A DNA stretch of 64,000 nt from a virus (IMGVR_UViG_3300046000_008568:94501-158500); one strand, 5' to 3'. Positions 16,600 to 35,197 are shown, numbered from the stretch's first letter. The notes: generated by a model not told the origin, from the letters alone. Numbers and translations are program-made.

Positions 16600-16683
16600 G
16601 GAAGGCATCCGGCAGGATCAGGAGCTGCTCTTGAAAAGCAGTAGCGGGTTAAACCGTTGTGAGTTCGAGTCTCACGCCTTCTT
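16600..16683 (+). tRNA. tRNA-Ser (anticodon TGA), class II
   Basis: Acceptor GGAAGGC/GCCTTCT; anticodon stem CTGCT/AGCAG with loop CTTGAAA; long variable arm; T-arm GTGAG-TTCGAGT-CTCAC. Confidence 0.6.
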
Positions 16684-16689
16684 CAATAT

Positions 16690-16761
16690 TGGTCTATGGT
16701 ATAACGGTTATTACACTTGACTTTGACTCAAGCAATCGTGGTTCGATTCCACGTAGACCAA
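16690..16761 (+). tRNA. tRNA-Gln (TTG)
   Basis: Acceptor TGGTCTA/TAGACCA; anticodon stem CTTGA/TCAAG with loop CTTTGAC; T-arm CGTGG-TTCGATT-CCACG. Confidence 0.6.
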
Positions 16762-16771
16762 CAAATAATTT

Positions 16772-16847
16772 CTGGATGTAGAGGAGCCCGGTTTATCTCG
16801 CTGGCCTTGGACGCTAGAGCACGCAGGTTCGAATCCTGCCATCCAGA
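16772..16847 (+). tRNA. tRNA-Pro (TGG)
   Basis: Acceptor CTGGATG/CATCCAG; anticodon stem CTGGC/GCTAG with loop CTTGGAC; T-arm GCAGG-TTCGAAT-CCTGC. Confidence 0.55.
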
Positions 16848-17048
16848 CTATAGACTGTTACTAATTCATAGATCACTGCCTAATAAGCACCGACGCATAG
16901 AATTAGATTTTGCCCTTTAGGCTTTAAAGTGAAGCACGATACTTTTAATATCGGGAAGTAGGAGCATTACCTACAAGGGGTACAAATTAGACTGTTAAGG
17001 TAGGACGTCAGTCAAAGAGAGGTGAGCCATACCTAAACCTCTTACCAG

Positions 17049-17119
17049 CCCCACATGGCGTAATGGTAGCGTGATTGTTTTACATGCAATAGGCGGTGGT
17101 TCGATTCCACCTGAGGGGA
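17049..17119 (+). tRNA. tRNA-Val (TAC)
   Basis: T-arm GGTGG-TTCGATT-CCACC; anticodon stem ATTGT/GCAAT with loop TTTACAT; acceptor has one mismatch. Confidence 0.5.
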
Positions 17120-17167
17120 CAATCAAGTGGTTATCACTAAACAATGGATTAAAAAGGAAGTGAATAA

Positions 17168-17238
17168 GGGGACAACAGGCAAGGTGCCGAGCAGCTCTGT
17201 AAAAGCTCACTGGGTAGGTTCGATTCCTACTGGCCCCA
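17168..17238 (+). tRNA. tRNA-Tyr (GTA), class-I-like
   Basis: T-arm GTAGG-TTCGATT-CCTAC; anticodon loop CTGTAAA; acceptor GGGGACA/TGGCCCC with one mismatch. Confidence 0.45.
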
Positions 17239-17301
17239 CAAAGTATGGAATAACATCGCTCCCGTAATGCCATGGCTCGTATACGAGTGACGGGAGACAA
17301 T

Positions 17302-17374
17302 GGACCTTTTGTATAGCTGGTGCGTACGCTAGTCTGAAGAACTAGAGGAGTAGGTTCGATTCCTACAGGGTCCA
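17302..17374 (+). tRNA. tRNA-Phe (GAA)
   Basis: Acceptor GGACCTT/AGGGTCC; anticodon stem CTAGT/ACTAG with loop CTGAAGA; T-arm GTAGG-TTCGATT-CCTAC. Confidence 0.65.
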
Positions 17375-17382
17375 CAATAAAT

Positions 17383-17457
17383 TGGTCTGAAGCTTAAGAG
17401 GTATATAGCGGAGGTTTGTTAAACCTAGGATAGCAGGTTCGAGTCCTGTCAGACCAG
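17383..17457 (+). tRNA. tRNA-Asn (GTT)
   Basis: Acceptor TGGTCTG/CAGACCA; anticodon loop TTGTTAA; T-arm GCAGG-TTCGAGT-CCTGT. Confidence 0.55.
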
Positions 17458-17464
17458 CAAAAAT

Positions 17465-17538
17465 AGGTAATTAGCTCAATTGGTTAGAGCACTCGCCTGA
17501 TACGTGAGAGGTTATAGGTTCGATTCCTATATTACCTA
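17465..17538 (+). tRNA. tRNA-Ile (GAT)
   Basis: Acceptor AGGTAAT/ATTACCT; D-arm GCTC..GAGC; anticodon stem CTCGC/GTGAG with loop CTGATAC; T-arm ATAGG-TTCGATT-CCTAT. Confidence 0.65.
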
Positions 17539-17544
17539 CAAAAT

Positions 17545-17629
17545 GGAAAGTAAATCAACATGGTGTTGAGTCCGCCTGCTAAGCGAGGCGTTCGGGTAAC
17601 CGGATTCAGTTCGATTCTGATTCTTTCCT
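17545..17629 (+). tRNA. tRNA-Ser-like (GCT), class II, imperfect
   Basis: 85 nt; anticodon loop CTGCTAA; long variable arm; T-loop TTCGATT; mismatches in the acceptor and T stems. Confidence 0.35.
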
Positions 17630-17920
17630 CTTTAAAAACCTGGTCCCTGTCCTCATAACGTGTTTAAGGAACACAGGAGTTGAATGTGCAATCGGGGCGG
17701 ATAGTGGTGGGACACTGATAAATAAAATCTTAAGCACAAAGATAAGTTAACGGGTTCTTATCAAACTACCGACTTGATCTAGGATCGAGAATATTTCATA
17801 AGTATTCCCAGACAAGAGCGTAACTTGTAGTCGGTACAATATGGTGTTCGAAGCTTTTTAGTGAAGCGCAAGACTGTGAATCTTGAGAAGATGGGGCGGT
17901 ACCGTTCTTACACCCAAAAT

Positions 17921-17994
17921 GCCCCTATGGTGAAACTGGTAAACACAACGGTTTTAAGCGCCGTAAGCTGTAGGTTCGAGTCCTACTGGGGGCA
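17921..17994 (+). tRNA. tRNA with anticodon TAA (Leu codon UUA) but a short variable arm
   Basis: Acceptor GCCCCTA/TGGGGGC; anticodon stem ACGGT/GCCGT with loop TTTAAGC; variable arm AAGCT (5 nt); T-arm GTAGG-TTCGAGT-CCTAC. Confidence 0.5.
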
Positions 17995-17999
17995 CAACT

Positions 18000-18071
18000 G
18001 GTCTTATAGTTTAATTGGAAAAACTTATCGCTACGAACGATAGAACGTAGGTTCGACTCCTACTAAGACCT
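18000..18071 (+). tRNA. tRNA-Arg (ACG)
   Basis: Acceptor GGTCTTA/TAAGACC; D-arm GTTT..AAAC; anticodon stem TATCG/CGATA with loop CTACGAA; T-arm GTAGG-TTCGACT-CCTAC. Confidence 0.65.
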
Positions 18072-18231
18072 CAAAATATAATTACAAAGCGTAGGTAAGA
18101 AGACGTGGAGAGACGTTGCGCAAGGGTACACACTAAGGATAAGTATTTATACTCAACTCTCTAATGGTGTGTGAAGCACTAAGAAATTAGAACCCAGATT
18201 CCTGATAAAACTTACTAATTATATTTTACTT

Positions 18232-18303
18232 GCCCGTATAGTTTAATTGGAAGAACTAAACGCTTCTAACGTTTCAGTCCTGGTTCAAGTCCAGGTATGG
18301 GTT
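18232..18303 (+). tRNA. tRNA-Arg (TCT)
   Basis: Anticodon stem AAACG/CGTTT with loop CTTCTAA; T-arm CCTGG-TTCAAGT-CCAGG; acceptor has two G-U pairs. Confidence 0.55.
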
Positions 18304-18310
18304 CAAAAAT

Positions 18311-18381
18311 GCGGGTCACAGACAAGGTGTCGGTACGGTCTCCAAAACTGCTACGGGTAAGTTCGATTCTTACGGCCTGCG
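18311..18381 (+). tRNA. tRNA-Trp-like (CCA), atypical D-arm
   Basis: Acceptor GCGGGTC/GGCCTGC with G-U pairs; T-arm GTAAG-TTCGATT-CTTAC; anticodon loop CTCCAAA; D-arm is irregular. Confidence 0.4.
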
Positions 18382-18447
18382 CAAAATTATTAATTATGAA
18401 AAAGAAATTCGATATGCATTAAGTTTATTAACTTAAAATGCATAAAA

Positions 18448-18630
18448 ATGAGAATCAAAAATCATACTCAGAAAGAGTATAAAAAAGAAAAAAGAAAACA
18501 ATCCAAAGATGGTGGAATGTGGTTTGAAGACTATTGGAGTAAATGTAAATCCGGAATATGGGCCTTCAAGTACAGAGAATACAGAACCTGGAAGTATAAC
18601 AGAAAAACACAATACAAACCTTTAAAATAA
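18448..18630 (+). CDS. small basic protein
   Basis: 60 aa, Lys/Arg/Tyr/Trp-rich; sits between the tRNA sub-arrays. Confidence 0.3.
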   Translation: MRIKNHTQKEYKKEKRKQSKDGGMWFEDYWSKCKSGIWAFKYREYRTWKYNRKTQYKPLK

Positions 18631-18636
18631 GTTATC

Positions 18637-19143
18637 ATGAGTAAGTACCAAAGAACACTGGTAATTGATTCAAGCTTTATGGCAAGATCCATTATCTCTA
18701 CCGAAAGAGCTTTCGTGATTTCGTATAAGGGTAATGCAGAAGTTATAGCTGAACATCCAGAAACATTCGGATTAGTAAATCCAAAACTAGAAATTTTTAA
18801 ACCTTCAATCATTAGGGTTTACAAATACGTAAAACAAAACATTCAAAAAGTTCCTCTAACAAGAGAGAATGTTTATCGAAGAGATAACTATGAATGTGTT
18901 TATTGTGGATCAAGTTATTTAAAATCACTAACTTTAGATCACGTTATTCCACAATCAAAAGGTGGAGCAAATGCTTGGGATAATTTAGTAACAGCATGTA
19001 GAAGTTGCAATTCACAAAAAGCAGATTTAACACTGGAGGAATATGGTAAAGAAATAGTAGAACCAAAAAGACCTCATTACTTAATGCTTATGAAACAACT
19101 AACATATGTTCCAAAAGAATGGGAAACATTTTTATTCTTTTAA
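18637..19143 (+). CDS. HNH homing-type endonuclease
   Basis: 168 aa; CVYCGSSY...LDHVIPQSKGG...WDNLVTACRSCNSQK is the classic HNH C-x2-C / H-N-H / C-x2-C pattern. Confidence 0.7.
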   Translation: MSKYQRTLVIDSSFMARSIISTERAFVISYKGNAEVIAEHPETFGLVNPKLEIFKPSIIRVYKYVKQNIQKVPLTRENVYRRDNYECVYCGSSYLKSLTLDHVIPQSKGGANAWDNLVTACRSCNSQKADLTLEEYGKEIVEPKRPHYLMLMKQLTYVPKEWETFLFF

Positions 19144-19190
19144 TTGGTTATTAAAAATATTGTTCGTATATTTAAGTATAATAAAGAGAT

Positions 19191-19376
19191 ATGAAAACCG
19201 AACAACAAATTAGAGAAAAGTACGAAGAGATGCTAAAGCATACAGAAGACTTGGATGATATGGTTCAAAACCCAAGTAAATATAGTGGTATTAATATTGA
19301 CAATATTCAAGATCATATAAAAGTAAGGGAAGAACAATATAAAATGAATACTCTGATTGAGTGGATTTTAAAATAA
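19191..19376 (+). CDS. hypothetical protein
   Basis: 61 aa ORF. Confidence 0.3.
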   Translation: MKTEQQIREKYEEMLKHTEDLDDMVQNPSKYSGINIDNIQDHIKVREEQYKMNTLIEWILK

Positions 19377-19453
19377 TAAATCACCTACTACATAACACGG
19401 CGCCAAATTAATTGTGACATGTACTGTCTGGAAGGTCAGGCTAGGTGATAAAT

Positions 19454-19523
19454 GGGCAGGATGGTTATGGAGACCGGCGGGATTGCAAACTCCGCAGAGT
19501 AAGTTCGATTCTTACCTTGCCCT
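19454..19523 (+). tRNA. tRNA-Cys (GCA)
   Basis: Acceptor GGGCAGG/CTTGCCC; anticodon loop TTGCAAA identical to canonical Cys; T-arm GTAAG-TTCGATT-CTTAC. Confidence 0.55.
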
Positions 19524-19618
19524 CATTTAAGGTTCGACCTTCTACCAAATGTGTTACACCCACAGATGGACATCGAGAGGGAGCTACCGATTGATAAGTG
19601 ACCGCACATGCGGTAAAT

Positions 19619-19692
19619 GCCCGAGTAGCCGAATTGGTATAGGCGCTAGACTTAGGATCTAGATTTTGCGAGTTCGAGTCTCGCCTTGGGTA
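19619..19692 (+). tRNA. tRNA with anticodon TAG (Leu codon CUA) but a short variable arm
   Basis: Anticodon stem CTAGA/TCTAG with loop CTTAGGA; variable arm ATTTT; T-arm GCGAG-TTCGAGT-CTCGC; acceptor GCCCGAG/CTTGGGT. Confidence 0.5.
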
Positions 19693-19851
19693 CGATAGTA
19701 GGACCGGGTTACCGGATATGGGTTCCTTAATTGGGCAGAAGGATTGGACGCCAAGCGCCTGGCCGCCTACAGATAAAATTAGAGTTAGCTTATAGTAAAG
19801 CAGCAGGGGCTAACCTGCAGAACGGATACGAAAACCGACTCTAATTTACTT

Positions 19852-19925
19852 GCTCTCGACGCACAAATGGTGGTGCACCGGATTTGTAACCCGGAATAGA
19901 GCCAGTTCGATCCTGGCCGAGAGCT
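19852..19925 (+). tRNA. tRNA-Thr (TGT)
   Basis: Acceptor GCTCTCG/CGAGAGC; D-arm GCAC..GTGC; anticodon loop TTTGTAA; T-arm GCCAG-TTCGATC-CTGGC. Confidence 0.6.
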
Positions 19926-19933
19926 CAATAATT

Positions 19934-20006
19934 GCGAATGTCGTATAACGGCTAATTATTCTTGACTTCCAATCAAGGGATGAGGGTTCGATTCCCTCCA
20001 TTCGCT
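19934..20006 (+). tRNA. tRNA-Gly (TCC)
   Basis: Acceptor GCGAATG/CATTCGC; anticodon stem CTTGA/TCAAG with loop CTTCCAA; T-arm GAGGG-TTCGATT-CCCTC. Confidence 0.65.
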
Positions 20007-20012
20007 CAAAAT

Positions 20013-20084
20013 GGCCCTATCGTCTATCGGTTAGGACACATGGTTTTCATCCATGAAAGTCGGGTTCGACTCCCGGTGGGGCTA
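20013..20084 (+). tRNA. tRNA-Glu (TTC)
   Basis: Anticodon stem CATGG/CCATG with loop TTTTCAT; T-arm TCGGG-TTCGACT-CCCGG. Confidence 0.6.
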
Positions 20085-20089
20085 CAATT

Positions 20090-20161
20090 GGGGCTATAGT
20101 ATAACGGCTATTACAATGGTTTTGCAAATCATAAATTGGAGTTCGATTCTCCATAGCTCCA
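20090..20161 (+). tRNA. tRNA-Ala (TGC)
   Basis: Acceptor GGGGCTA/TAGCTCC; anticodon stem ATGGT/ATCAT with loop TTTGCAA; T-arm TGGAG-TTCGATT-CTCCA. Confidence 0.6.
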
Positions 20162-20235
20162 CAAAATCGATCATAAGAGGATTGACCTATGAGGCTAATA
20201 GGTAAGTGATTGACAACTTGGAAAGACAGGTAACT

Positions 20236-20310
20236 GGTCCTATCGTTCAACGGCTAGGATGTAAGCTTGTCACGCTTATGATGAGGGTTCGATTCCCTCT
20301 AGGACCGCCA
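20236..20310 (+). tRNA. tRNA-Asp (GTC), with encoded 3' CCA
   Basis: Acceptor GGTCCTA/TAGGACC; anticodon stem TAAGC/GCTTA with loop TTGTCAC; T-arm GAGGG-TTCGATT-CCCTC; discriminator G followed by CCA. Confidence 0.65.
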
Positions 20311-20313
20311 TAT

Positions 20314-20387
20314 TGCGGGTTGGTAGAAGTTGGTATCTCGTGAGCCTCATAAGCTTAAGGTCGGGGGTTCGAGTCCCTCACCCGCTA
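20314..20387 (+). tRNA. tRNA-Met (CAT), with unpaired 1:72
   Basis: Anticodon stem TGAGC/GCTTA with loop CTCATAA; T-arm GGGGG-TTCGAGT-CCCTC; first acceptor base pair is a T-T mismatch. Confidence 0.5.
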
Positions 20388-20394
20388 CTAAATC

Positions 20395-20468
20395 GTCCTT
20401 TTAGCTCAGTTGGTCAGAGCAGCTCGCTCATAACGAGAAGGTCACAGGTTCGAGCCCTGTATAGGACA
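20395..20468 (+). tRNA. tRNA-Met or tRNA-Ile2 (CAT)
   Basis: D-arm GCTC-AGTTGGTCA-GAGC; anticodon loop CTCATAA; T-arm ACAGG-TTCGAGC-CCTGT. Confidence 0.55.
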
Positions 20469-20531
20469 CTAAATTTATTCAATATGAGGTCAATTCCTTC
20501 ATCTCCAATGTAGGTTAGCTATTGCTAACTT

Positions 20532-20765: not shown

Positions 20766-20848
20766 GAAAGTATTTGAAGAGAGGTTTGGATACCTGAACC
20801 TTTCTTCTTATATTTAGATAAGAAATAAAAACAACAAAAATCATAGTT

Positions 20849-21760: not shown

Positions 21761-22146
21761 TTTGGTGCTAAGAAGGTAAGCACAAGCTGATCCTTTAGAG
21801 CTTTATGCTGGGGTAGTGGAGTTTTAAAAAAACTATATAAAAATGACTTTTAATCATTCTATGACAGACATAAATGGCCCCGTGCCCTTTGTAAACCGCT
21901 TCCCTACAAACTTAAACCCAAACTGAGATAGAACTCAACAGCTAGACAGGTTACATCCCATAATGGGTGATTGGTTAGCGAAACTGAGACTTAGTTTTTG
22001 TCCTTGCCCTTGTGGTAGTGGAAGGTTTTTGACTTTGATTTTGCATTTGACCTAGTCTATATGCTTTACACCCCAGTAACAAAATAATTAATAAAAAGCT
22101 TGCTTATGCAGGCTTTTATTTGTATATTTATAAAAAATTTAAAAGT

Positions 22147-22224
22147 TATGAAACAGATTAAAACATTTGCAATTACATTTGTAGCAATGCTAATACTAAT
22201 GATTATTGTAGTAAATTTAAGATA
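22147..22224 (+). CDS. tiny hydrophobic peptide (25 aa), not in ORF track
   Basis: MKQIKTFAITFVAMLILMIIVVNLR, a single TM helix. Confidence 0.25.
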
Positions 22225-22226
22225 AC

Positions 22227-22346
22227 ATGGAAACATATTTAGAATTTTTAGCAGTAACGCTAATGACATCAACTACCTTAGGGGTAGTTATTATAATAGT
22301 AGCAGGAGGTTATATGATTTACAAATATATTAAAGAAGAGTATTAA
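22227..22346 (+). CDS. tiny hydrophobic peptide (39 aa), not in ORF track
   Basis: METYLEFLAVTLMTSTTLGVVIIIVAGGYMIYKYIKEEY; its stop overlaps the start of the next gene (TAATG). Confidence 0.3.
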   Translation: METYLEFLAVTLMTSTTLGVVIIIVAGGYMIYKYIKEEY

Positions 22347-22963
22347 TGGAAGATTTTTTTGAAGAATTAAGCAACAGACCAAGACCAAACTTCTTTAGAA
22401 GAATATATCTTTGGTGGGAACATGACGGAAAGTATTACTATAAGTACTTTAAACAAGGAGTAAAAAACATTTGGTACTGGTTTCCAGTTATCTGGAAAGA
22501 TAGAGATTGGGATGGACATTATATTTTTGAAATACTACAGCATAAATTAACAGCACAAGCCAATTATATTGGTAGAAGAGATTTTCATACTAGAGCACAA
22601 CAAGATGCTCGTAGAATGAGACTATGTGTTAAGTTGATTAAAAAAGTACAAGAAGAAGACTATACAATGGAGTACATGGATTATCATAAAGACAGAGTAT
22701 GGTTTACAGATGTTGAAGACAGACCAGGAAATTCTTTATATAATTCGGAAGAGGTATGGGAAAAGTATGATGATTATTTTGCTAAATATCCTTTAGTTTA
22801 TAAAAAGGTATTAAAAGGTGAAGGAGTATTTACTTTGGATGGTAAAAATGAAGCTGATATGAAAAGAGTTATAGCAATGAATATTGCACATTTGAATCAC
22901 GATCGAGCAAGAAAATTGCTATTTAAAATAATGGAAGAAAATATAGAAGGATGGTGGGATTAG
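22346..22963 (+). CDS. hypothetical protein
   Basis: 205 aa ORF. Confidence 0.45.
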   Translation: MEDFFEELSNRPRPNFFRRIYLWWEHDGKYYYKYFKQGVKNIWYWFPVIWKDRDWDGHYIFEILQHKLTAQANYIGRRDFHTRAQQDARRMRLCVKLIKKVQEEDYTMEYMDYHKDRVWFTDVEDRPGNSLYNSEEVWEKYDDYFAKYPLVYKKVLKGEGVFTLDGKNEADMKRVIAMNIAHLNHDRARKLLFKIMEENIEGWWD

Positions 22964-23062
22964 TATGTGGTATAATGGGACTGCTAGTTGCAGTCGCAGT
23001 ATGGGTAGAAGGGATTGATTCTATGAATAAAAATTATCCTGACTATAAAGGAGAAGAATTGT

Positions 23063-23503
23063 TTGGAGAAGACGAAGAAAAAAAAGAAAAAGATGAGCAA
23101 GATTAAAATATACTTAGATGATGTAAGAACACCAGTTGATCCATCTTGGACTGTAGTAAGAAACTACGAACAATTTGTTGATACTGTTACTTATATTAGG
23201 TTGGAAAACATAGATGTAATCTCTTTAGATCACGATTTAGGTGATTCAGCAATGGCTGAATGGCATAAGAATGTTTACCATAATTACGAATTAAATTATG
23301 ATAATATTACAGAGAAGACTGGAATGGATTGCACAAAATGGTTGGTTAATCAATGGTTGGATGGAGCTTGTGTTGTTGATGTTGTAATACATTCGGCAAA
23401 TGCCGTTGGTAGTGCAAATATGATGGGATATATAAACAACTACAGGCATATTCATAGATTACCTCAAAACTGTGTAAGAGTACAAATTGAACATACAGTA
23501 TGA
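23063..23503 (+). CDS. hypothetical protein
   Basis: 146 aa; an alternative ATG at 23093 follows a Lys run. Confidence 0.4.
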   Translation: MEKTKKKKKKMSKIKIYLDDVRTPVDPSWTVVRNYEQFVDTVTYIRLENIDVISLDHDLGDSAMAEWHKNVYHNYELNYDNITEKTGMDCTKWLVNQWLDGACVVDVVIHSANAVGSANMMGYINNYRHIHRLPQNCVRVQIEHTV

Positions 23504-24051
23504 AAGTAATATTTCTAGATAATGACGGAGTAATCTGCCTAGCCAATAATTGGGGTAGTAGATTTAAAAAGCAGACAAAAAGCATAGCTAAAACTGTTGC
23601 TGACAAAGATCTACCTGTTGAACTTCGTTTTGATAACTTTGACCAAAAAGCAATTAAAGTACTAAATCAAATCCTAGAAGAAACAGGAGCAGAAATAGTA
23701 ATATCCTCAGATTGGAGAACATGGGCTACATTAGAGGAATTAGGAGAGTTTTATTTATCACAAGGGATAATAAAAAAACCAATAGCACTTACTCCGTTAT
23801 TGAAAAACTTTGATGATAGTGCTTTTCAATTATTTTGGTATAAAAGGTGGTTGGAGAAAATTAGAATCTTAGAAATCCAAGAATGGTTAGAAAATAATCA
23901 AGTTGATAAATGGGTAGCTATTGATGATTTAAACATGAGTCTACAATTTAATGGAGGTTATGGATTAGAGAATTTTGTTTTAACTCCTCGTTCAACTGAA
24001 GGAATAAAACAGTCAGGAATAAAAGAACAAATACTACAATATTTAGAATAA
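23500..24051 (+). CDS. HAD-superfamily phosphatase (candidate polynucleotide 3'-phosphatase)
   Basis: N-terminal FLDNDGVI matches the HAD motif I DxDG(T/V); ATGA overlap. Confidence 0.4.
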   Translation: MKVIFLDNDGVICLANNWGSRFKKQTKSIAKTVADKDLPVELRFDNFDQKAIKVLNQILEETGAEIVISSDWRTWATLEELGEFYLSQGIIKKPIALTPLLKNFDDSAFQLFWYKRWLEKIRILEIQEWLENNQVDKWVAIDDLNMSLQFNGGYGLENFVLTPRSTEGIKQSGIKEQILQYLE

Positions 24052-24146
24052 AATGAAATATTTTCTAATTTGGGTAGGGTATGAATTTATAAGACCAAAA
24101 TTTATTTGGTTGTGGTATTATTTAATAAAAAAAGGATCAGAATAAA

Positions 24147-24863
24147 GTGAGAATAACAGTATTATCAGACACACATACAAGACATGGATTAATTCCTATG
24201 GAAGATCTACCAGGTGGAGATTTATTACTCCATGCTGGAGATTTAATGAACTCAGGGTATAATAAACATGATATTCATAGTTTCTGTACCTGGTTTCAAT
24301 CATTGAAACAATATGAAGATAAAGTATTCATAGCAGGTAATCACGATCGTTTATTTGAAAATGAACCACATGAAGTAGAAGGATACTTAAAAGATTATCC
24401 GCTAATCGATTACCTTCAAGATGCTGAGTTAGTTTTGTATGGAGATGGTCCAAATGGAGATATGCCTGAAAATAACATTCGCATTTACGGATCACCTTGG
24501 CAACCGGAATTCTATTCTTGGGCATTCAATTTACCAAAAAATGGAATTGAAATAGCAGGTAAGTGGGAAGGTATTCCTAACAACACAGACATTCTTATCA
24601 CACATGGTCCTGCATTTGGAACTTTAGATACAGTAGCAGGAAGACCTTGGGACGGATTAGGATGCGAGTTATTAGCTCAAAGAATTGAAGTCGTAAAACC
24701 AAAAATTCACATCTGTGGTCACATTCATTCAGGATATGGTTATGAGTTTAAAGATGGTACTCACTTCTTCAATGCATCAGTATTGGACGAGGCTTACGAA
24801 TACACTCAAAAACCAATGACGTTTGATTGGGATAAAGAAACAAATACAATAAATTTCATTTAA
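24147..24863 (+). CDS. calcineurin-like metallophosphoesterase
   Basis: GTG start; VLSDTH, GDL, GNHD, ITHGP, CGHIH metal-binding motifs. Confidence 0.6.
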   Translation: MRITVLSDTHTRHGLIPMEDLPGGDLLLHAGDLMNSGYNKHDIHSFCTWFQSLKQYEDKVFIAGNHDRLFENEPHEVEGYLKDYPLIDYLQDAELVLYGDGPNGDMPENNIRIYGSPWQPEFYSWAFNLPKNGIEIAGKWEGIPNNTDILITHGPAFGTLDTVAGRPWDGLGCELLAQRIEVVKPKIHICGHIHSGYGYEFKDGTHFFNASVLDEAYEYTQKPMTFDWDKETNTINFI

Positions 24864-24921
24864 AATTAGGCTTATAAGTATATAGGTTGTAATTTTATAA
24901 AAGATTTAAAAATATAAGGTT

Positions 24922-25572
24922 ATGAGAATTACATTAGAAAAAGGACAAAGATTGTTCTTCACATCAGACACACATTACGCTCACTCAAACATTTGTAGTG
25001 CTACTACAAACTGGTCTGTGAACGATGGATACGCTCGTACATTCAATTCACTTGATCATATGAATGCTACTCTAATTAATAACATTAATTGTATGGTTGG
25101 TGAAGATGATATCTTAATTCACTTAGGAGATTGGTCATTTGGAGGATTTGATAAAGTACAAGAATTTAGAGATAGAATACTTTGTAAAAATATTCACTTG
25201 ATATTTGGAAATCACGATCACCACATTGAAAGAAACAAAGAAGGTATCCAATCATTATTTTCTTCAGTACAAAACTACTTGAGATTAGAAGTAAAAAGAC
25301 CAATCAATAAAGCAACAACTGAAAAGTTTACTTTCGTTTGTATGCACTATCCAATTGCGTCCTGGCATGATATGAACCAAGGAGTAATTCACTTACATGG
25401 TCACGTTCATCTACCACCACATCTAAGATTAGCAGATGGTAAAGCAATGGATGTTGGAGTAGATGGAAACGGTTTAGAGCCTTTATCAATGAATGAGATA
25501 TTATCGATAATGAAAGATCGTCCAATTAAAAAATTAGCCTTACCAAAGGATCACCATGAGCAAAGAATCTAA
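24922..25572 (+). CDS. metallophosphoesterase (second copy)
   Basis: TSDTHYAH, HLGDW, GNHDHH, HGHVH motifs. Confidence 0.55.
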   Translation: MRITLEKGQRLFFTSDTHYAHSNICSATTNWSVNDGYARTFNSLDHMNATLINNINCMVGEDDILIHLGDWSFGGFDKVQEFRDRILCKNIHLIFGNHDHHIERNKEGIQSLFSSVQNYLRLEVKRPINKATTEKFTFVCMHYPIASWHDMNQGVIHLHGHVHLPPHLRLADGKAMDVGVDGNGLEPLSMNEILSIMKDRPIKKLALPKDHHEQRI

Positions 25573-25822
25573 TATAAAATATGGAATAATTTTTACAAGT
25601 GCTTTAATTATAGAGATTTGTTCAACGTTCTATATTCGCTTTACAGCAGAAGCCAATACAATGGGGATGGTATTCTTTGCTTTTATTGGCCCGTTTTTAG
25701 CTTTACCATTTGCAGGTTATATGGTAGAATCTAAATTTTGGAATGAACGTATAAGAATGGCTTTTGCTTTAGCATTAGGTTACGCTCTTGGAGCATTAGT
25801 AGTTAATATTATAAAAATATAA
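25556..25822 (+). CDS. small membrane protein
   Basis: 88 aa with 3 predicted TM helices. Confidence 0.35.
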   Translation: MSKESNIKYGIIFTSALIIEICSTFYIRFTAEANTMGMVFFAFIGPFLALPFAGYMVESKFWNERIRMAFALALGYALGALVVNIIKI

Positions 25823-25825
25823 GAT

Positions 25826-26209
25826 ATGAAAGAGTTATTTTTATTAAGAGGATTACCTGGATCAGGAAAATCAACATTGGCAGAATCATTAGGAAATATG
25901 ACTATAGAAGCAGACCAATATTTTACATATAATGGTAAGTATGAATTTGATGCCTCTAAATTAAAAGATGCACATGCTTGGTGTCAAAATACTGCGAAAG
26001 TTTGGATGACAAATGATGTTAAGAAAATAATAGTATCAAATACATTTACTCAGACTTGGGAAATGGACTACTACTTTGACTTAGCAGAAAAGTACGGATA
26101 CAGAGTTTATTCTTTGATTGTAGAAAATAGACATGGAGGAGTAAATGAGCATGGAGTACCAGAAGAGAAATTAGTACAAATGAAAGATAGATTTGAAATA
26201 AAATTATAA
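25826..26209 (+). CDS. P-loop kinase (polynucleotide 5'-kinase-like)
   Basis: LLRGLPGSGKST Walker A at the N-terminus; 127 aa; sits immediately upstream of the RNA ligase. Confidence 0.5.
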   Translation: MKELFLLRGLPGSGKSTLAESLGNMTIEADQYFTYNGKYEFDASKLKDAHAWCQNTAKVWMTNDVKKIIVSNTFTQTWEMDYYFDLAEKYGYRVYSLIVENRHGGVNEHGVPEEKLVQMKDRFEIKL

Positions 26210-26212
26210 AAA

Positions 26213-27358
26213 ATGGAAAACAATAATTCAGTTTGCTTTATAGCAAAAATAAATGAAGTAAAAGCAATCGAAGGTGCTGATAACATCGAACTTGTAATCG
26301 CAGGTGGATGGAATGCTATCACTAGAAAAGGAGAATTTAAAGTAGGTGATGAGACAATCATTGCAACTACTGATGCAGTTATACCAGAAAAACTTTCTGA
26401 AGAAATGGGAGTTACTTCTTACCTAAGAAAAGGAGGTAGAGTAAGAACTGTAAAACTAAGAGGAGTTTATTCTGAATGTTTAATCATTCCAATGAAATAC
26501 CTTAGTGGTAAAACCACTATGGGTGACTTTGATTTGAAAGAAGGAAGCGACTGTATGGAGTTCTTAGGAATTATCAAATACGAACCACCAGTTAAACAAA
26601 TTCAACTTGCTTCAGGTAGAAAGATTAAATGGAGAGACAATCAGAACTTCCATATCTATTACAAATTCCCAAACCTTAAAAACGTTGAAGGAATGTTTAC
26701 ACCAGAAGATACAGTAGAGATTTCTCGTAAGATTCATGGTACAAATGCTAGATACGGTATTGTAAAAAAATCTAAATTGTCATTCTGGGATAAAGTAAAA
26801 AAATTCTTTAGACTAGCTGATAAGTGGATTGACTATGAATACATTTACGGTTCACATAATTGTGAGAAAGGATCTGACTCTCAAGGATTTTATTCTGAAG
26901 ATGTTTGGAAAACAATAGCTGAGAAGTATGATATTAAAGCTAAGCTTTGGGATGAAGTTAAAAATGGAGTAGCTAGTCTTGTAGATATTGGAAGTGGATT
27001 TGTAATCTATGGAGAAATTTATGGAGCAGGTATTCAAAAGAACTATGACTATGGATTAGATGATATTAGATTTATAGGATTTGATACAACTATTAGAGGT
27101 GCTTACAACTCACCAGCTGGTACTTTCGGTACATTTCATTCACTAGACTTACCTTATATTGAAGTACTTTATTTTGGACTTTGGAATCAAGAAGTACAGG
27201 ATAGGTTTACATTTAACAACTTCATTGAAGGAACAAAAGTACCACATGAAGGAATTGTAATTAAACATTCATCAGGTGATAGAAAGAAAGTAGCAAAGGT
27301 AATCAATCCCGACTATTTGATCTACGGAGAGAAGAATGATGTAGGAGATTCACATTAA
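26213..27358 (+). CDS. Rnl2-family RNA ligase
   Basis: RKIHGTN (motif I, cf. T4 Rnl2 EKIHGTN), IYGEIYGAGIQKNYDY (cf. T4 VFGEFAGPGIQKNVDY), EGIVIK, KVINPDY. Confidence 0.75.
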   Translation: MENNNSVCFIAKINEVKAIEGADNIELVIAGGWNAITRKGEFKVGDETIIATTDAVIPEKLSEEMGVTSYLRKGGRVRTVKLRGVYSECLIIPMKYLSGKTTMGDFDLKEGSDCMEFLGIIKYEPPVKQIQLASGRKIKWRDNQNFHIYYKFPNLKNVEGMFTPEDTVEISRKIHGTNARYGIVKKSKLSFWDKVKKFFRLADKWIDYEYIYGSHNCEKGSDSQGFYSEDVWKTIAEKYDIKAKLWDEVKNGVASLVDIGSGFVIYGEIYGAGIQKNYDYGLDDIRFIGFDTTIRGAYNSPAGTFGTFHSLDLPYIEVLYFGLWNQEVQDRFTFNNFIEGTKVPHEGIVIKHSSGDRKKVAKVINPDYLIYGEKNDVGDSH

Positions 27359-27373
27359 AATAATTGATAAAAG

Positions 27374-27400
27374 GCTTGTTTACACGAGCCTTTCTTCGTA
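27374..27400 (+). terminator. hairpin terminator
   Basis: AAGGCT-TGTTTACACG-AGCCTT followed by a T-rich tail; same architecture as the one at 32460. Confidence 0.4.
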
Positions 27401-27429
27401 ATTTTATATCAAAGTTAAAAATAAAAGTT

Positions 27430-27774
27430 ATGTTTAAAAGATTTTTTAAGTACACACCAACATCTCAAGAGCAACAATTCATAGACATTATATCTAAATT
27501 GCTGGAGCATCCTAAAACATCGTTACGGATGACACCTCTAACGGATAAATATTTTCTTATTAATGAACAGAAACATTATTACATTTTACTTCAAAATACA
27601 GGTATTCAACTAACAAATACAAAATTCTCCTTTTGTAAATCGTTGCATCCAAAAGCATATGATATGGTTATAGAAAATATCCACGCTCATATTGAAGCAA
27701 ACAGACAAGCCCTAGAAGCTAAATTATTTAAAAACGAAACAACTATGCTGGATACAGTATTAAACAATTTATAG
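27430..27774 (+). CDS. hypothetical protein
   Basis: The ATG at 27430 is preferred because the track start at 27364 lies inside the upstream terminator. Confidence 0.4.
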   Translation: MFKRFFKYTPTSQEQQFIDIISKLLEHPKTSLRMTPLTDKYFLINEQKHYYILLQNTGIQLTNTKFSFCKSLHPKAYDMVIENIHAHIEANRQALEAKLFKNETTMLDTVLNNL

Positions 27775-35128: not shown

Positions 35129-35197
35129 TGTTGTGAGGCGTATTGGTATACGCACCGATCGAAAGGGAGATAGTAGGTTCGATTCCTACCACAACAT
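35129..35197 (+). ncRNA. isolated degenerate tRNA-like element
   Basis: Acceptor TGTTGTG/CACAACA; D-arm GCGT-ATTGGTAT-ACGC; T-arm GTAGG-TTCGATT-CCTAC; no foldable anticodon arm; lies 15 kb from the tRNA array. Confidence 0.4.

What the first reader, a model, noticed from the sequence alone, without database searches (positions are those of the whole stretch)
23500..27358. Complete RNA heal-and-seal cassette placed directly after the tRNA array
An Rnl2-type RNA ligase (26213-27358) carries near-identical T4 Rnl2 motifs. It sits with a P-loop kinase (25826-26209), two metallophosphoesterases (24147-24863 and 24922-25572) and a HAD phosphatase (23500-24051). Together these supply the 5'-kinase, 2',3'-phosphatase and ligase activities needed to repair tRNAs cleaved by host anticodon nucleases (PrrC, RloC or VapC-type). 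The position right after the tRNA genes is suggestive. Two phosphoesterases plus a HAD phosphatase is more than the canonical T4 Pnkp/Rnl set, so the split arrangement may be a variant pathway.
Basis: partly seen in the sequence, partly recalled or inferred. Interest (0 to 1): 0.65.

Follow-up and report, generated by a model that had tools for sequence, protein, structure and literature searches.

The report
Phage RNA break-repair gene cassette
A bacteriophage carries, a few genes after its tRNA genes, four phosphate-removing enzymes, a small kinase and an RNA ligase that together look able to mend RNA cut by bacterial defence nucleases; such systems have already been predicted by computation, but this one uses a ligase type whose natural job is still unknown.

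Summary
The genes are real and sit at the stated coordinates, but three details are wrong. The ligase is not Rnl2-type. It has the Rnl5 (DraRnl/NgrRnl) architecture: an N-terminal OB domain, a nucleotidyltransferase domain and no C-terminal domain. Only motif I (KIHGTN) copies T4 Rnl2. The cassette starts 2.6 kb after the tRNA array, not directly after it. A seventh component was missed: a cREC "cyclic-phosphate processing receiver" gene at 23093-23503.

Comparison with 80 related viral loci shows two modules. The core is MPE2-kinase-ligase, bracketed by a repeated hairpin/promoter-like element. It stays together in permuted orders, and in some relatives it begins under 100 nt after the last tRNA. 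In unrelated phages the same kinase and phosphoesterase families flank Rnl1-type ligases instead. The accessory module is cREC-HAD-MPE1. The nearest cultured phage, Flavobacterium phage immuto, keeps cREC, MPE1 and MPE2 but has no kinase, ligase or HAD. The six-gene contiguity is a local rearrangement.

The best reading is an RNA end-healing and sealing system. tRNA as the substrate is plausible but unproven. It is a new variant of a computationally predicted kind, of moderate interest.

The parts
16600..20469 (+). tRNA array: 18 tRNAs by ARAGORN and one more by Rfam at 17383-17457. An HNH endonuclease ORF lies inside it at 18637-19143.
22081..22144 (+). Copy of a 64-nt repeated intergenic element (hairpin plus promoter-like motif). 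It marks the start of module A. In relatives the MPE2-kinase-ligase block is inserted at this junction.
22346..23106 (+). Two ORFs of unknown function (22346-22963 and 22951-23106). They travel with cREC in 29 and 15 related loci respectively.
23093..23503 (+). cREC (cyclic-phosphate processing receiver domain) protein, 136 aa. It is a predicted metal-independent 2',3'-cyclic-phosphate or cyclic ADPr-phosphate esterase. The true start is the ATG at 23093, not the TTG at 23063.
23500..24051 (+). Stand-alone HAD phosphatase of the 'Swiss Army Knife' RNA-repair family. Predicted 2'/3'-phosphomonoesterase.
   Evidence: Pfam HAD_SAK_2, E 1.4e-22. Invariant DxD (D7, D9), S69, S70, D142, D143.
24147..24863 (+). 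MPE1: a metallophosphoesterase close to mammalian MPPED2. It is the component least tied to the ligase.
   Evidence: PDB 3rl4, E 4.8e-36. Metal ligands invariant. Homologues in other phages lack a ligase context.
24849..24911 (+). Copy of the repeated promoter-like element immediately upstream of MPE2. It is the boundary between modules A and B.
24922..25572 (+). MPE2: a metallophosphoesterase of the aq_1665 / phrog_547 family. It is the phosphoesterase partner of the kinase-ligase pair and the predicted 3'-end healing enzyme.
   Evidence: Synteny. Adjacent to the same kinase family in distant phages.
25556..25822 (+). 88-aa ORF with three hydrophobic segments. Conserved (94% identity) only in loci L020-L022. 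Role unknown.
25826..26209 (+). Minimal (127 aa) P-loop kinase of the polynucleotide-kinase clade. Predicted 5'-OH polynucleotide kinase.
   Evidence: AAA_33, E 1.6e-11; phrog_505 (PNK), E 2e-7. The family profile's best PDB hit is T4 Pnk, E 3.8e-5, followed among other weaker hits by PSTK, Pnkp1 and the CthPnkp kinase domain. Lies within 1.5 kb upstream of the ligase in 41 of 57 arrangements.
26213..27358 (+). ATP-dependent RNA ligase with Rnl5 architecture: N-terminal OB domain, NTase domain, no C-terminal domain. Lys173 is the predicted adenylylation site.
27357..27420 (+). Hairpin plus promoter-like repeated element immediately after the ligase stop codon. It closes module B. The next gene probably starts at the ATG at 27430.

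Best explanation
The region encodes a phage RNA end-healing and sealing system made of two transcription modules.

Module B (MPE2, a small membrane ORF, kinase, ligase; 24922-27358) is the core. After a host ribonuclease leaves a 2',3'-cyclic phosphate and a 5'-OH, the proposed steps are:
1. The binuclear metallophosphoesterase MPE2 opens and/or removes the 3'-terminal phosphate.
2. The 127-aa PNK-like kinase phosphorylates the 5'-OH.
3. The Rnl5-type ligase is adenylylated on Lys173 and seals 3'-OH to 5'-PO4.

Module A (cREC, Swiss-army-knife HAD, MPPED2-like MPE1; 23093-24863) supplies additional or alternative end-processing. cREC would open cyclic phosphates. HAD would remove the resulting 2'- or 3'-monophosphate. 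MPE1's role is uncertain.

The likely purpose is to reverse RNA cleavage by host defence nucleases. tRNAs are the favoured but unproven substrate.

What is shown: gene presence, family membership, intact catalytic residues, conserved linkage and module boundaries. What is inferred: every enzymatic step, the substrates and the biological target.
For: Family assignments and catalytic residues:
- Domain hits.
- Ligase equivalents of the NgrRnl residues are conserved: D54, K122, K173, E268, E346, K362. NgrRnl D172 is His (H175) here (NgrRnl residues from PMC7261155 and PMC9931718).
- The kinase has the P-loop and an invariant Asp30 aligned to T4 Pnk Asp35. Its profile's best PDB hit is T4 Pnk, followed among other weaker hits by PSTK, Pnkp1 and the CthPnkp kinase domain.
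- HAD DxD motif, MPE metal ligands and cREC Asp residues are all invariant.

Linkage across 80 related viral loci (63 distinct arrangements):
- A kinase lies within 1.5 kb upstream of the ligase in 41 of 57 informative arrangements.
- Pairs adjacent within 150 nt: kinase-ligase 23, MPE2-kinase 11, ligase-MPE2 6.
- The triad survives in permuted orders: MPE2-KIN-LIG, KIN-LIG-MPE2, LIG-MPE2-KIN.
- HAD or cREC is inserted directly into the core in other lineages: HAD-MPE2-KIN-LIG in L049 and L064; MPE2-cREC-KIN-LIG in L069 and L079; LIG-cREC in L066; HAD-KIN in L071.

Non-orthologous ligase displacement: the same kinase family (48-54% identity) and MPE2-like phosphoesterases sit next to Rnl1-type ligases (PF09511) in Aeromonas phage 2L372X and Pseudomonas phage Pyxpy02. 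In Vibrio phage Ceto the neighbouring ligase is only annotated 'RNA ligase/tail attachment protein' and gave no Pfam hit.

Module B is bracketed by a repeated hairpin/promoter-like element here and in L007, L003 and L042.

tRNA linkage:
- 25 of 58 related loci hold at least 5 tRNAs within 8 kb of the ligase.
- In L006, L011 and L024, MPE2-KIN-LIG begins 70-90 nt after the last tRNA.
- The ligase N-domain weakly resembles tRNA-binding OB folds.

Literature predicts these roles for cREC, SAK-HAD, calcineurin-like enzymes and kinases next to phage RNA ligases (PMC7824862, PMC9503650).
Against: - No activity was or could be tested here.
- Characterised Rnl5 enzymes seal nicks in duplexes, not anticodon-loop breaks. 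Their physiological substrates are unknown, and DraRnl loss gives a DNA-repair phenotype (PMC4408790, PMC5397189).
- The complete genome of the closest cultured phage (immuto) has cREC (80% identity), MPE1 (68%) and MPE2 (79%) but no kinase, ligase or HAD. These phosphoesterases therefore have a use without ligation.
- MPE1 homologues elsewhere sit in nucleotide-metabolism or replication contexts.
- The kinase's similarity to T4 Pnk is weak (E 3.8e-5, and only with a profile).
- The ligase scores below the TIGR02306 curated cut-off (98.5 against 151 bits).
- The AF2 ligase model is poor (pLDDT 59.8).
- The related loci are phylogenetically non-independent, so the synteny counts overstate the number of independent events.
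- No host anticodon nuclease is known for this phage.
Confidence: 0.6

Rival explanations
1. Module A (cREC, HAD, MPE1), and perhaps MPE2, is not an RNA end-healing set. It would instead degrade small phosphorylated molecules: cyclic nucleotides, 2',3'-cNMPs, ADP-ribose cyclic phosphates or other defence signals, or nucleotide-pool intermediates. Only the kinase-ligase pair would be RNA repair.
For: - Phage immuto keeps cREC, MPE1 and MPE2 but has no kinase, ligase or HAD anywhere in its 160 kb genome.
- MPE1 is a close homologue of MPPED2 (E 4.8e-36). From my own knowledge, MPPED2 is a cyclic-nucleotide phosphodiesterase-type metallophosphoesterase.
- MPE1 homologues occur in ~60-kb Flavobacterium phages in an early/replication region, with no ligase within 4 kb. 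In phage Tunturi_5 one sits next to a dNMP kinase and a nucleoside deoxyribosyltransferase.
- The literature proposes that cREC may also process cyclic ADPr derivatives, and it is often fused to Nudix (PMC7824862, PMC9503650; one search shows Nudix-annotated hits).
- A promoter-like element separates module A from module B.
Against: - HAD_SAK_2 and cREC are defined by their RNA-repair contexts (PMC7824862).
- In other lineages HAD and cREC sit directly between or beside MPE2, the kinase and the ligase.
- MPE1-like genes lie directly after the ligase in L053 and L067, and about 1 kb after a distant Rnl5 homologue in L094.
- MPE2 is the most constant partner of the kinase, both here and in distant phages.
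Confidence: 0.2
2. The ligase, kinase and phosphoesterases repair DNA or RNA-DNA junctions rather than RNA. They would process nicks with 3'-phosphate/5'-OH ends or ribonucleotide patches in phage DNA, made during replication or by host nucleases.
For: - Rnl5 enzymes seal nicks in which only the 3'-OH strand must be RNA.
- Deleting DraRnl sensitises Deinococcus to ionising radiation and delays genome reassembly (PMC5397189; PMC4408790).
- PNK-type kinases and 3'-phosphatases also heal DNA ends (general knowledge).
Against: - The same kinase and phosphoesterase pair partners with Rnl1-type ligases (PF09511) elsewhere. From my own knowledge, the founding Rnl1 enzyme (T4 Rnl1) is a tRNA repair ligase.
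- The SAK-HAD and cREC families are defined by RNA-repair contexts.
- Linkage with tRNA arrays recurs.
- Some phages with the related triad carry a separate DNA ligase gene nearby.
Confidence: 0.12
3. The P-loop protein is a nucleoside, dNMP or other small-molecule kinase, and the cluster is ordinary nucleotide metabolism that happens to lie beside a ligase.
For: - Single-sequence similarity to any solved kinase is confined mostly to the P-loop.
- NCBIfam gives only sub-threshold P-loop hits, including adenylate kinase.
- Sources name the protein only 'predicted kinase' or 'ATPase'.
Against: - The profile search puts T4 polynucleotide kinase first over 106 positions; weaker hits further down the list include PSTK, Pnkp1 and the CthPnkp kinase domain.
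- PHROG hits include polynucleotide kinase and a kinase-ligase fusion family.
- The gene ends 3-9 nt before the ligase start in many loci.
- It is paired with RNA ligases of two unrelated families.
Confidence: 0.05
4. The contiguity is a chance by-product of shuffling in a hypervariable accessory region and carries no functional meaning.
For: - The six-gene order is unique to this window among the 80 relatives.
- It arose by relocation of the MPE2-kinase-ligase block between copies of a repeated intergenic element.
- The region is full of small ORFs of unknown function, each with its own promoter-like element.
Against: The same families re-associate in many different orders and in distant phage lineages. 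Chance does not predict this.
Confidence: 0.03

Closest known systems
Bacteriophage T4 Pnkp + Rnl1 tRNA repair (countermeasure to the PrrC anticodon nuclease)
   Same: The logic is the same: 5'-kinase, 3'-phosphate removal and an ATP-dependent RNA ligase, all encoded by a phage that also carries tRNA genes. The kinase is of the same P-loop clade. A DxD HAD phosphatase is present.
   Different: The kinase is a free-standing 127-aa protein, not fused to the phosphatase. The constant phosphoesterase partner is a calcineurin-type metallophosphoesterase. The ligase is Rnl5-type (N-terminal OB domain), not Rnl1. cREC and a second metallophosphoesterase are extra.
Bacterial Pnkp (of the Pnkp/Hen1 RNA repair system, e.g. 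Clostridium thermocellum)
   Same: The three activities have the same fold types: a P-loop kinase, a binuclear calcineurin-type metallophosphoesterase and a lysine-adenylylating NTase ligase. The CthPnkp kinase domain appears among the kinase profile hits.
   Different: Here the three activities are on separate polypeptides. The ligase has an Rnl5 architecture. No Hen1 methyltransferase partner is present in the cassette. The only methyltransferase in the window (11161-11730) lies next to a weak glycosyltransferase-like ORF.
Rnl5 family RNA ligases (Deinococcus radiodurans DraRnl, Naegleria gruberi NgrRnl)
   Same: The proteins are collinear: an N-terminal OB domain plus an NTase domain, with the motif I lysine at 173 against 170 and no C-terminal domain. 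Most NgrRnl active-site residues are conserved.
   Different: Identity is only about 18-20%. The score is below the TIGR02306 cut-off. Motif I is KIHG (His, as I recall for T4 Rnl2) instead of KLDG. There is an insertion of about 40 residues between motifs I and III. The gene is operonic with end-healing enzymes; I found no report of that for the characterised Rnl5 members in the papers I could read.
Computationally predicted phage RNA-repair neighbourhoods with cREC, Swiss-army-knife HAD, calcineurin-like phosphoesterase, kinase and ligase (Iyer et al. 2021 PMC7824862; Iyer et al. 2022 PMC9503650; Burroughs and Aravind 2016, cited there)
   Same: The domain families and the proposed division of labour are the same: cyclic-phosphate opening, linear phosphate removal, 5' phosphorylation and ligation.
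   Different: The neighbourhoods described in those papers centre on T4-like (Rnl1/Rnl2) ligases or RtcB, often with sirtuin, Nudix, KptA or macro genes. No such NAD-linked genes were found among the 30 ORFs I scanned between 11 and 48 kb. The ligase here is Rnl5-type.
Phosphoesterase / Rnl1-like ligase / kinase triads in Aeromonas phage 2L372X, Vibrio phage Ceto and Pseudomonas phage Pyxpy02
   Same: The kinase family is the same (48-54% identity) and the phosphoesterase family is the same (phrog_547-like). Both are adjacent to an RNA ligase.
   Different: The ligase there is a ~300-aa protein. It hits PF09511 (Rnl1) in 2L372X and Pyxpy02; the Ceto ligase gave no Pfam hit. The 2L372X ligase shows no BLASTP similarity to the window ligase (E 0.71). 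Those phages often have NAD-salvage genes nearby.
Mammalian MPPED2 metallophosphoesterase (PDB 3rl4)
   Same: MPE1 aligns over its whole length (E 4.8e-36), and all metal-binding motifs are conserved.
   Different: MPE1 is a phage protein in an RNA-repair-like neighbourhood. Its substrate is unknown.

Membership tests
Rnl2 family RNA ligase (T4 Rnl2) | A C-terminal domain following the NTase domain, and no N-terminal OB module | tested here: not met
   Only 19 residues follow motif V Lys362. An N-terminal PF21189 OB domain is present.
Rnl2 family RNA ligase (T4 Rnl2) | Family-level sequence model (TIGR02307) | tested here: not met
   16.3 bits against a cut-off of 197; E 5e-3. T4 Rnl2 matches the NTase core only.
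Rnl5 family RNA ligase (DraRnl/NgrRnl) | An N-terminal OB domain fused to a C-terminal NTase domain, with no C-terminal appendage | tested here: met
   PF21189 at residues 10-94 plus PF09414 at 167-364. The profile hits NgrRnl at E 1.1e-38 across both domains. The top 13 Foldseek hits are all NgrRnl.
Rnl5 family RNA ligase (DraRnl/NgrRnl) | NTase motifs with the lysine nucleophile and metal/ATP-binding residues (NgrRnl K170, E227, E312, K326; N-domain D53, K121) | tested here: met
   K173, E268, E346, K362, D54 and K122 are conserved. The D172 position is His175.
Rnl5 family RNA ligase (DraRnl/NgrRnl) | Curated equivalog score (TIGR02306) | tested here: not met
   98.5 bits against a cut-off of 151.15, although the alignment is full length and E is 3.4e-28. 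The protein belongs to a diverged subfamily.
Rnl5 family RNA ligase (DraRnl/NgrRnl) | Seals 3'-OH RNA / 5'-PO4 nicks in duplexes | not testable with these tools
   Needs biochemistry.
Polynucleotide 5'-kinase (T4 Pnk clade of P-loop kinases) | Walker A P-loop and a catalytic Asp (T4 Asp35) downstream of it | tested here: met
   GLPGSGKST, and an invariant Asp30 aligned to T4 Asp35.
Polynucleotide 5'-kinase (T4 Pnk clade of P-loop kinases) | Significant family-level similarity to characterised PNKs over the kinase domain | tested here: inconclusive
   The profile hits T4 Pnk at E 3.8e-5 over positions 1-106. Pnkp1 and the CthPnkp kinase score E 0.02-0.1. phrog_505 (PNK) scores E 2e-7. The C-terminal Arg motif was not aligned.
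Polynucleotide 5'-kinase (T4 Pnk clade of P-loop kinases) | Phosphorylates 5'-OH RNA or DNA ends | not testable with these tools
   Needs biochemistry. Context supports it.
T4 Pnkp-type bifunctional end-healing enzyme | Kinase and HAD phosphatase fused in one polypeptide | tested here: not met
   The kinase (127 aa) and the HAD (183 aa) are separate genes 1.8 kb apart.
HAD_SAK_2 (Swiss Army Knife RNA-repair HAD phosphatase) | Pfam gathering score and the HAD catalytic motifs (DxD, S/T, DD) | tested here: met
   81 bits against 27.5. D7, D9, S69, S70, D142 and D143 are invariant.
cREC (PF20274) | Pfam gathering score, a receiver fold, conserved acidic residues and no histidine-kinase partner | tested here: met
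cREC (PF20274) | Cyclic-phosphate esterase activity | not testable with these tools
   The activity is only predicted in the literature (PMC9503650). No solved structure or assay was found.
Calcineurin-like binuclear metallophosphoesterases (MPE1, MPE2) | Metal-binding motifs DxH, GD, GNH(D/E), H and GHxH | tested here: met
   MPE1: D8, H10, D32, N65, H66, H153, H192, H194. MPE2: D16, H18, D70, N97, H98, H142, H161, H163.
Bacterial Pnkp/Hen1 RNA repair system | A Hen1 2'-O-methyltransferase partner and a single kinase-phosphatase-ligase polypeptide | tested here: not met
   The three activities are on separate genes, and there is no methyltransferase in or beside the cassette.

The most novel reading that the evidence does not exclude
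The upstream block (cREC, Swiss-army-knife HAD, MPPED2-like MPE1) may be an independent counter-defence module. It would destroy cyclic-phosphate, cyclic-nucleotide or ADP-ribose-derived immune signals, or 2',3'-cyclic-phosphate RNA fragments that act as alarm signals, rather than preparing RNA ends for ligation. Its present position next to the kinase-ligase block would then be a recent, element-mediated juxtaposition. That would make a calcineurin-fold enzyme and the uncharacterised cREC fold new classes of phage anti-signalling enzymes.
Probability: 0.15. Interest if true: 0.65.

Novelty: new variant of a known kind. Interest (0 to 1): 0.4.

Why it matters
Rnl5 ligases are widespread in bacteria, phages, archaea and protists. 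Their discoverers state that the physiological substrates are unknown (PMC4408790, PMC5397189).

In this phage lineage an Rnl5-type ligase is welded to a polynucleotide-kinase-like gene and a metallophosphoesterase. It often lies beside a tRNA array, and it is interchangeable with Rnl1-type ligases in the same triad. That gives a concrete, testable hypothesis: at least the phage Rnl5 enzymes seal healed 2',3'-cyclic-phosphate/5'-OH RNA breaks.

The locus also provides compact, separately encoded candidates for two activities that are predicted but never assayed: cREC and the Swiss-army-knife HAD. It offers a natural comparison as well, because phage immuto lacks the kinase, ligase and HAD but keeps the other three.

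The practical payoff would be new RNA-end-processing enzymes and a clearer picture of how phages answer RNA-cleaving defences. The general idea is not new.

Tried and rejected
- AF2 model of the ligase from a shallow alignment (at least 80% identity): poor (pLDDT 59.8). I used it only for ranking Foldseek hits, not for structural claims.
- Single-sequence PDB search of the kinase: only P-loop matches. A profile was needed.
- PDB profile search for MPE2: only the uncharacterised Aquifex aq_1665, so no substrate inference was possible.
- Sigma-70 promoter scan: not above chance (38 found against 44 ± 6 expected). The host is probably Bacteroidota, where that consensus does not apply. The repeated element found later is more informative. 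The terminator scan listed two of the four local hairpin copies. My interim conclusion of 'no terminator between 22118 and 28900' was therefore dropped.
- Other RNA-repair or NAD-linked genes (RtcB, KptA, 2H, Nudix, sirtuin, macro, RlaP, CCA-adding enzyme): none among the 30 ORFs scanned between 11 and 48 kb. The window was not scanned exhaustively.
- Rfam: only tRNAs.
- Burroughs and Aravind 2016 (NAR) and the NgrRnl structure paper (PNAS 2015) are not held in the library. Their content is cited only through papers that cite them.
- Cellular genomes with distant Rnl5 homologues: 77 of 80 loci show no homologue of the kinase or phosphoesterases within 6 kb by tblastn. This is an insensitive test and a weak negative.
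- I considered the 189-aa methyltransferase (11161-11730) as a Hen1 analogue and rejected it. It lies 12 kb away, next to a weak glycosyltransferase-like ORF.

Full report
**What is there**

All genes in the window are on the + strand. Between 23063 and 27358 the ORF list shows seven consecutive ORFs.

| Gene | Coordinates | Evidence |
|---|---|---|
| HAD | 23500-24051 | Pfam HAD_SAK_2, E 1.4e-22 |
| MPE1 | 24147-24863 | Metallophos, E 2e-13; phrog_1649 |
| MPE2 | 24922-25572 | Metallophos, E 3e-7; phrog_547, E 7e-43 |
| small ORF | 25556-25822 | 88 aa, no family hit |
| kinase | 25826-26209 | AAA_33, E 1.6e-11; phrog_2071; weaker phrog_505 'polynucleotide kinase'; weaker hit to a 737-aa 'RNA ligase' phrog whose N-terminus is this kinase |
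| ligase | 26213-27358 | PHA02142 OB-fold PF21189 at residues 10-94; RNA_ligase PF09414 at residues 167-364; phrog_968 |

- Gene spacing is tight. cREC overlaps HAD by 4 nt. The kinase starts 3 nt after the small ORF, and the ligase starts 3 nt after the kinase.
- The cassette's G+C content (32.5%) equals that of the window (32.2%), so nothing marks it as a recent foreign insert.
- The tRNA array spans 16600-20469: 18 genes by ARAGORN and one more by Rfam.
- The first cassette gene therefore begins 2.6 kb after the last tRNA. A 303-aa ORF, a 205-aa ORF, a 51-aa ORF and two hairpin/terminator-like sites lie between.

**The ligase**

Tests do not bear that out.

- NCBIfam gives TIGR02306 (RNA_lig_DRB0094, the Deinococcus family) at E 3.4e-28, aligned over residues 10-368 against model positions 5-338 of 341. 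TIGR02307 (Rnl2) scores E 5e-3.
- The best solved relative is Naegleria gruberi RNA ligase, the structural prototype of Rnl5:
  - single sequence, E 1.5e-11;
  - close-homologue profile, E 2e-16;
  - profile of 37 diverse representatives, E 1.1e-38, covering both the N domain with motif I and motifs III-V.
- T4 Rnl2 reaches only E 2.6e-11, and only over the NTase core.
- The AF2 model was poor (pLDDT 59.8). Even so, its 13 best Foldseek matches are all NgrRnl (E about 1e-14), followed by T4 Rnl2 at E 2e-5.
- Only 19 residues follow motif V, so the C-terminal domain that defines Rnl2 is absent.
- The NgrRnl active-site residues (PMC7261155, PMC9931718) have conserved equivalents: D54 (D53), K122 (K121), K173 (K170), E268 (E227), E346 (E312) and K362 (K326).
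- The exception is D172, which is His175 here. The resulting motif I, KIHGTN, matches T4 Rnl2 motif I as I recall it from memory.
- The family is large. There are 6565 clusters at 50% identity with E ≤ 1e-3, mostly 340-400 aa and collinear.

The ligase is a diverged member of Rnl5 by architecture. It falls below the curated equivalog score (98.5 against 151 bits).

**The kinase**

- A single-sequence search finds little beyond the P-loop.
- A profile of 22 orthologues puts T4 polynucleotide kinase first (E 3.8e-5, positions 1-106). Weaker hits further down the list include L-seryl-tRNA(Sec) kinase, Pnkp1 and the kinase domain of Clostridium thermocellum Pnkp.
- The invariant Asp30 aligns with the catalytic Asp35 of T4 Pnk.
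- This is suggestive rather than decisive. The stronger evidence is context, described below.

**The phosphoesterases**

- MPE1 is a full-length homologue of mammalian MPPED2 (E 4.8e-36). All its metal ligands are invariant.
- MPE2 resembles only the uncharacterised Aquifex aq_1665. Its metal ligands are also invariant.
- HAD has the DxD nucleophile motif and the other HAD motifs, all invariant.
- cREC:
  - It is very conserved, at 69-96% identity across relatives.
  - It keeps the acidic residues of receiver domains (YLDD, SLDHDLG).
  - It models confidently (pLDDT 81.6).
  - It has no close solved relative (best Foldseek E 0.06).
  - I found no experimental study of cREC. PMC9503650 says it is uncharacterised.

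**Relatives and gene order**

A scan of IMG/VR returned 80 loci whose ligase is 65-92% identical. tblastn of the window's proteins against them gave 63 distinct arrangements.

- A kinase homologue is present in 50 arrangements.
- It lies within 1.5 kb upstream of the ligase in 41 of the 57 arrangements that have enough flank, often 3-9 nt away.
- MPE2 is present in 39 arrangements.
- Pairs adjacent within 150 nt: kinase-ligase 23, MPE2-kinase 11, ligase-MPE2 6.
- The triad occurs as MPE2-KIN-LIG, KIN-LIG-MPE2 (L055, L056, L060, L063, L076), LIG-MPE2-KIN (L075) and KIN-MPE2...LIG (L072).
- MPE1 (20 arrangements), cREC (18) and HAD (11) are less constant. In other lineages they are nevertheless placed directly into the core:
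  - HAD-MPE2-KIN-LIG (L049, L064)
  - MPE2-cREC-KIN-LIG (L069, L079)
  - HAD-KIN (L071)
  - LIG-cREC (L066)
  - cREC-LIG (L080)
  - LIG-MPE1-HAD (L053)
  - LIG-MPE1 (L067)
  - MPE1-MPE2-KIN-LIG (L050)
- No relative has the window's order. All six families occur within ±8 kb only in L004, L033 and L042, where the order is MPE2-KIN-LIG ... cREC-HAD-MPE1.

**How the window's order arose**

- DNA alignment to L007, L003, L014 and L042 shows that the sequence just upstream of MPE2 in relatives matches window 21754-22154.
- The sequence just downstream of their ligase matches window 22081-22250.
- The MPE2-KIN-LIG block is therefore missing from that junction in the window and sits instead between MPE1 and the next gene.
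- Both junctions carry a 64-nt repeated element: a G+C-rich hairpin followed by a conserved motif (TTTGG...CGTAATTTTATA...GTTAAAA). Copies lie at 20767, 22081, 24849 and 27357.
- An nhmmer model of this element finds about 20 copies in the window. All but one weak hit are on the + strand. The copies I checked against the ORF list lie roughly 15-35 nt upstream of ORF starts, and one weak copy lies just before the tRNA array.
- I read the element as a phage promoter, preceded in some copies by a terminator hairpin. This is inference.
- The same bracket surrounds MPE2-KIN-LIG in L007, L003 and L042.
- The finding is therefore two units:
  - module A: o22346, o22951, cREC, HAD, MPE1;
  - module B: MPE2, small ORF, kinase, ligase.
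- Module B behaves as a relocatable block. From my own knowledge, this resembles the promoter-stem-loop-mediated shuffling described for T4-type phages. I did not test that comparison.

**Evidence from unrelated phages**

- The kinase has homologues of 48-54% identity in 626 isolate genomes. MPE2 has homologues in 1072.
- In Aeromonas phage 2L372X the order is phosphoesterase, RNA ligase, kinase.
- In Vibrio phage Ceto it is ligase, small ORF, kinase, phosphoesterase.
- In Pseudomonas phage Pyxpy02 it is phosphoesterase, two small ORFs, ligase, kinase.
- The ligases of 2L372X and Pyxpy02 are about 300 aa and hit Pfam RNA_lig_T4_1 (Rnl1). The Ceto ligase gave no Pfam hit. The 2L372X ligase shows no BLASTP similarity to the window ligase (E 0.71).
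- The same kinase and phosphoesterase families therefore work beside ligases of two different families. This is the strongest argument that they are end-healing partners of an RNA ligase, and not nucleotide-metabolism enzymes.

**Evidence that complicates the picture**

- The closest cultured phage is Flavobacterium phage vB_FspM_immuto; MPE2 is 82% identical at the DNA level.
- I fetched its whole 160-kb genome and searched it. It encodes cREC (80%), MPE1 (68%) and MPE2 (79%), but nothing resembling the kinase, ligase or HAD (all E > 1).
- Its MPE2 starts 11 nt after a tRNA gene.
- These three phosphoesterases must therefore be useful without a phage ligase.
- MPE1 homologues in other phages lie beside a dNMP kinase and a nucleoside deoxyribosyltransferase (phage Tunturi_5), or in the early/replication region of ~60-kb Flavobacterium phages.
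- Characterised Rnl5 enzymes seal nicks in duplexes where the 3'-OH strand is RNA. Their natural substrates are unknown, and DraRnl loss causes radiation sensitivity and delayed genome reassembly (PMC4408790, PMC5397189).
- None of this refutes RNA repair. It does lower confidence that every gene belongs to one pathway and that tRNA is the target.

**The tRNA link**

- Of the 58 related loci scanned, 25 have at least five tRNAs within 8 kb of the ligase.
- In L006, L011 and L024, MPE2-KIN-LIG begins 70-90 nt after the last tRNA.
- In another lineage (L012, L018, L029-L031, L035) the array lies several kb (about 4-7 kb) downstream of the ligase.
- Linkage therefore persists through rearrangement. 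The loci are related to one another, however, and both features lie in a variable early region.
- The ligase N-domain gives weak matches to tRNA-binding OB folds (YgjH/Trbp111, PheRS beta, the MetRS C-domain): E 0.004-0.01 by sequence profile and 1e-4 to 1e-2 by Foldseek. This is a hint, not evidence of tRNA binding.

**Other checks**

- No RtcB, KptA, 2H, Nudix, sirtuin, macro or RlaP genes were found among the 30 ORFs scanned between 11 and 48 kb.
- Rfam finds only tRNAs.
- Distant Rnl5 homologues in 77 of 80 cellular loci show no nearby homologue of the kinase or phosphoesterases by tblastn. This test is insensitive.
- Two MAG contigs assigned to Bacteroidetes and Sediminibacterium carry the phage-type block. 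Together with the immuto host, this points to a Bacteroidota host.

**Verdict**

- The best explanation is a phage RNA end-healing and sealing system with a conserved core (MPE2, PNK-like kinase, Rnl5-type ligase) and an accessory phosphoesterase module (cREC, HAD, MPE1). Confidence is 0.6.
- The main rival is that the accessory module, or part of it, acts on small phosphorylated signals or nucleotides instead (0.2).
- The kind of system is already predicted in PMC7824862 and PMC9503650, and in Burroughs and Aravind 2016 as cited there.
- This is a variant in which an Rnl5-type ligase takes the place of Rnl1 and the healing activities are on separate small proteins.
- Interest is moderate (0.4). 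It comes mainly from the locus making the unknown physiology of Rnl5, and the unassayed cREC and SAK-HAD activities, directly testable.

Noticed in passing
window 20767-20830, 22081-22144, 24849-24911, 27357-27420, and about 15 more copies between 28807 and 42916: A repeated intergenic element of about 50-64 nt: an optional G+C-rich hairpin followed by TTTGG...CGTAATTTTATA...GTTAAAA. All copies but one weak hit are on the + strand. The copies checked lie about 15-35 nt upstream of ORF starts. It is probably the phage's early or middle promoter. Copies bracket the MPE2-kinase-ligase block here and in relatives, and they look like the recombination points for module shuffling.
   Followed up: partly
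window 18637-19143: An HNH endonuclease ORF (PF14279/PF01844, E about 1e-16) lies inside the tRNA array, between tRNA-Arg(tct) and tRNA-Cys. It is probably a homing endonuclease.
   Followed up: no
window 17383-17457 and 35129-35198: Rfam finds a tRNA at 17383-17457 (51.8 bits) that ARAGORN missed. Conversely, ARAGORN's isolated tRNA-Ser(cga) at 35129-35198 and its tRNA-Ser(tga) at 16600-16684 are absent from the Rfam gathering-score list.
   Followed up: no
window 25556-25822: An 88-aa ORF with three hydrophobic segments sits between MPE2 and the kinase and overlaps the MPE2 stop by 17 nt. It is conserved (94% identity) only in L020-L022. Other relatives have 217-457 nt gaps at this position.
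   Followed up: partly
proteins P0443, P0445, P0446, P0448, P0478 (ligase relatives of 710-750 aa): In some ligase homologues the match is split into two stretches, and about 350 extra residues are inserted just after motif I (around query residues 177-183). This would fit an intein or other insertion at the active site.
   Followed up: no
L064 1734-2119 and L079 7212-7592: Related phage contigs encode tmRNA genes next to their tRNA arrays.
   Followed up: no
L012 14262-14351, L029 9130-9219, L030 9517-9606, L031 14662-14751: A conserved 90-nt tRNA-like gene that ARAGORN reads with a four-base anticodon (ttga). It could be a frameshift or suppressor tRNA, or an intron-containing tRNA.
   Followed up: no
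window 22346-22963 and 22951-23106: Two ORFs of unknown function (205 aa, weak phrog_15483 hit; 51 aa) travel with cREC in most relatives and in phage immuto. They may belong to the same functional module.
   Followed up: no
window 27364-27774: The ORF listed from the TTG at 27364 overlaps the repeated element. Its real start is probably the ATG at 27430 (MFKRFFKY...), which gives a protein of about 114 aa with unknown function. In relatives this gene follows MPE1, not the ligase.
   Followed up: partly
window 28871-29662, 31580-32437, 46225-46980: A DUF932 protein (E 8e-35), an SPFH/Band 7 protein (E 1e-17) and a protein with a sigma-70 region 2 match (E 2e-5) lie downstream.
   Followed up: no
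L091 and L092 (MAG contigs CAIWBA010000291.1, 254 kb, and JBBAJS010000010.1, 112 kb): Contigs binned as Bacteroidetes and Sediminibacterium genomes carry the phage-type ligase (67-68% identity) with kinase and MPE2 homologues. They are probably phage or prophage sequence and give a host clue.
   Followed up: no
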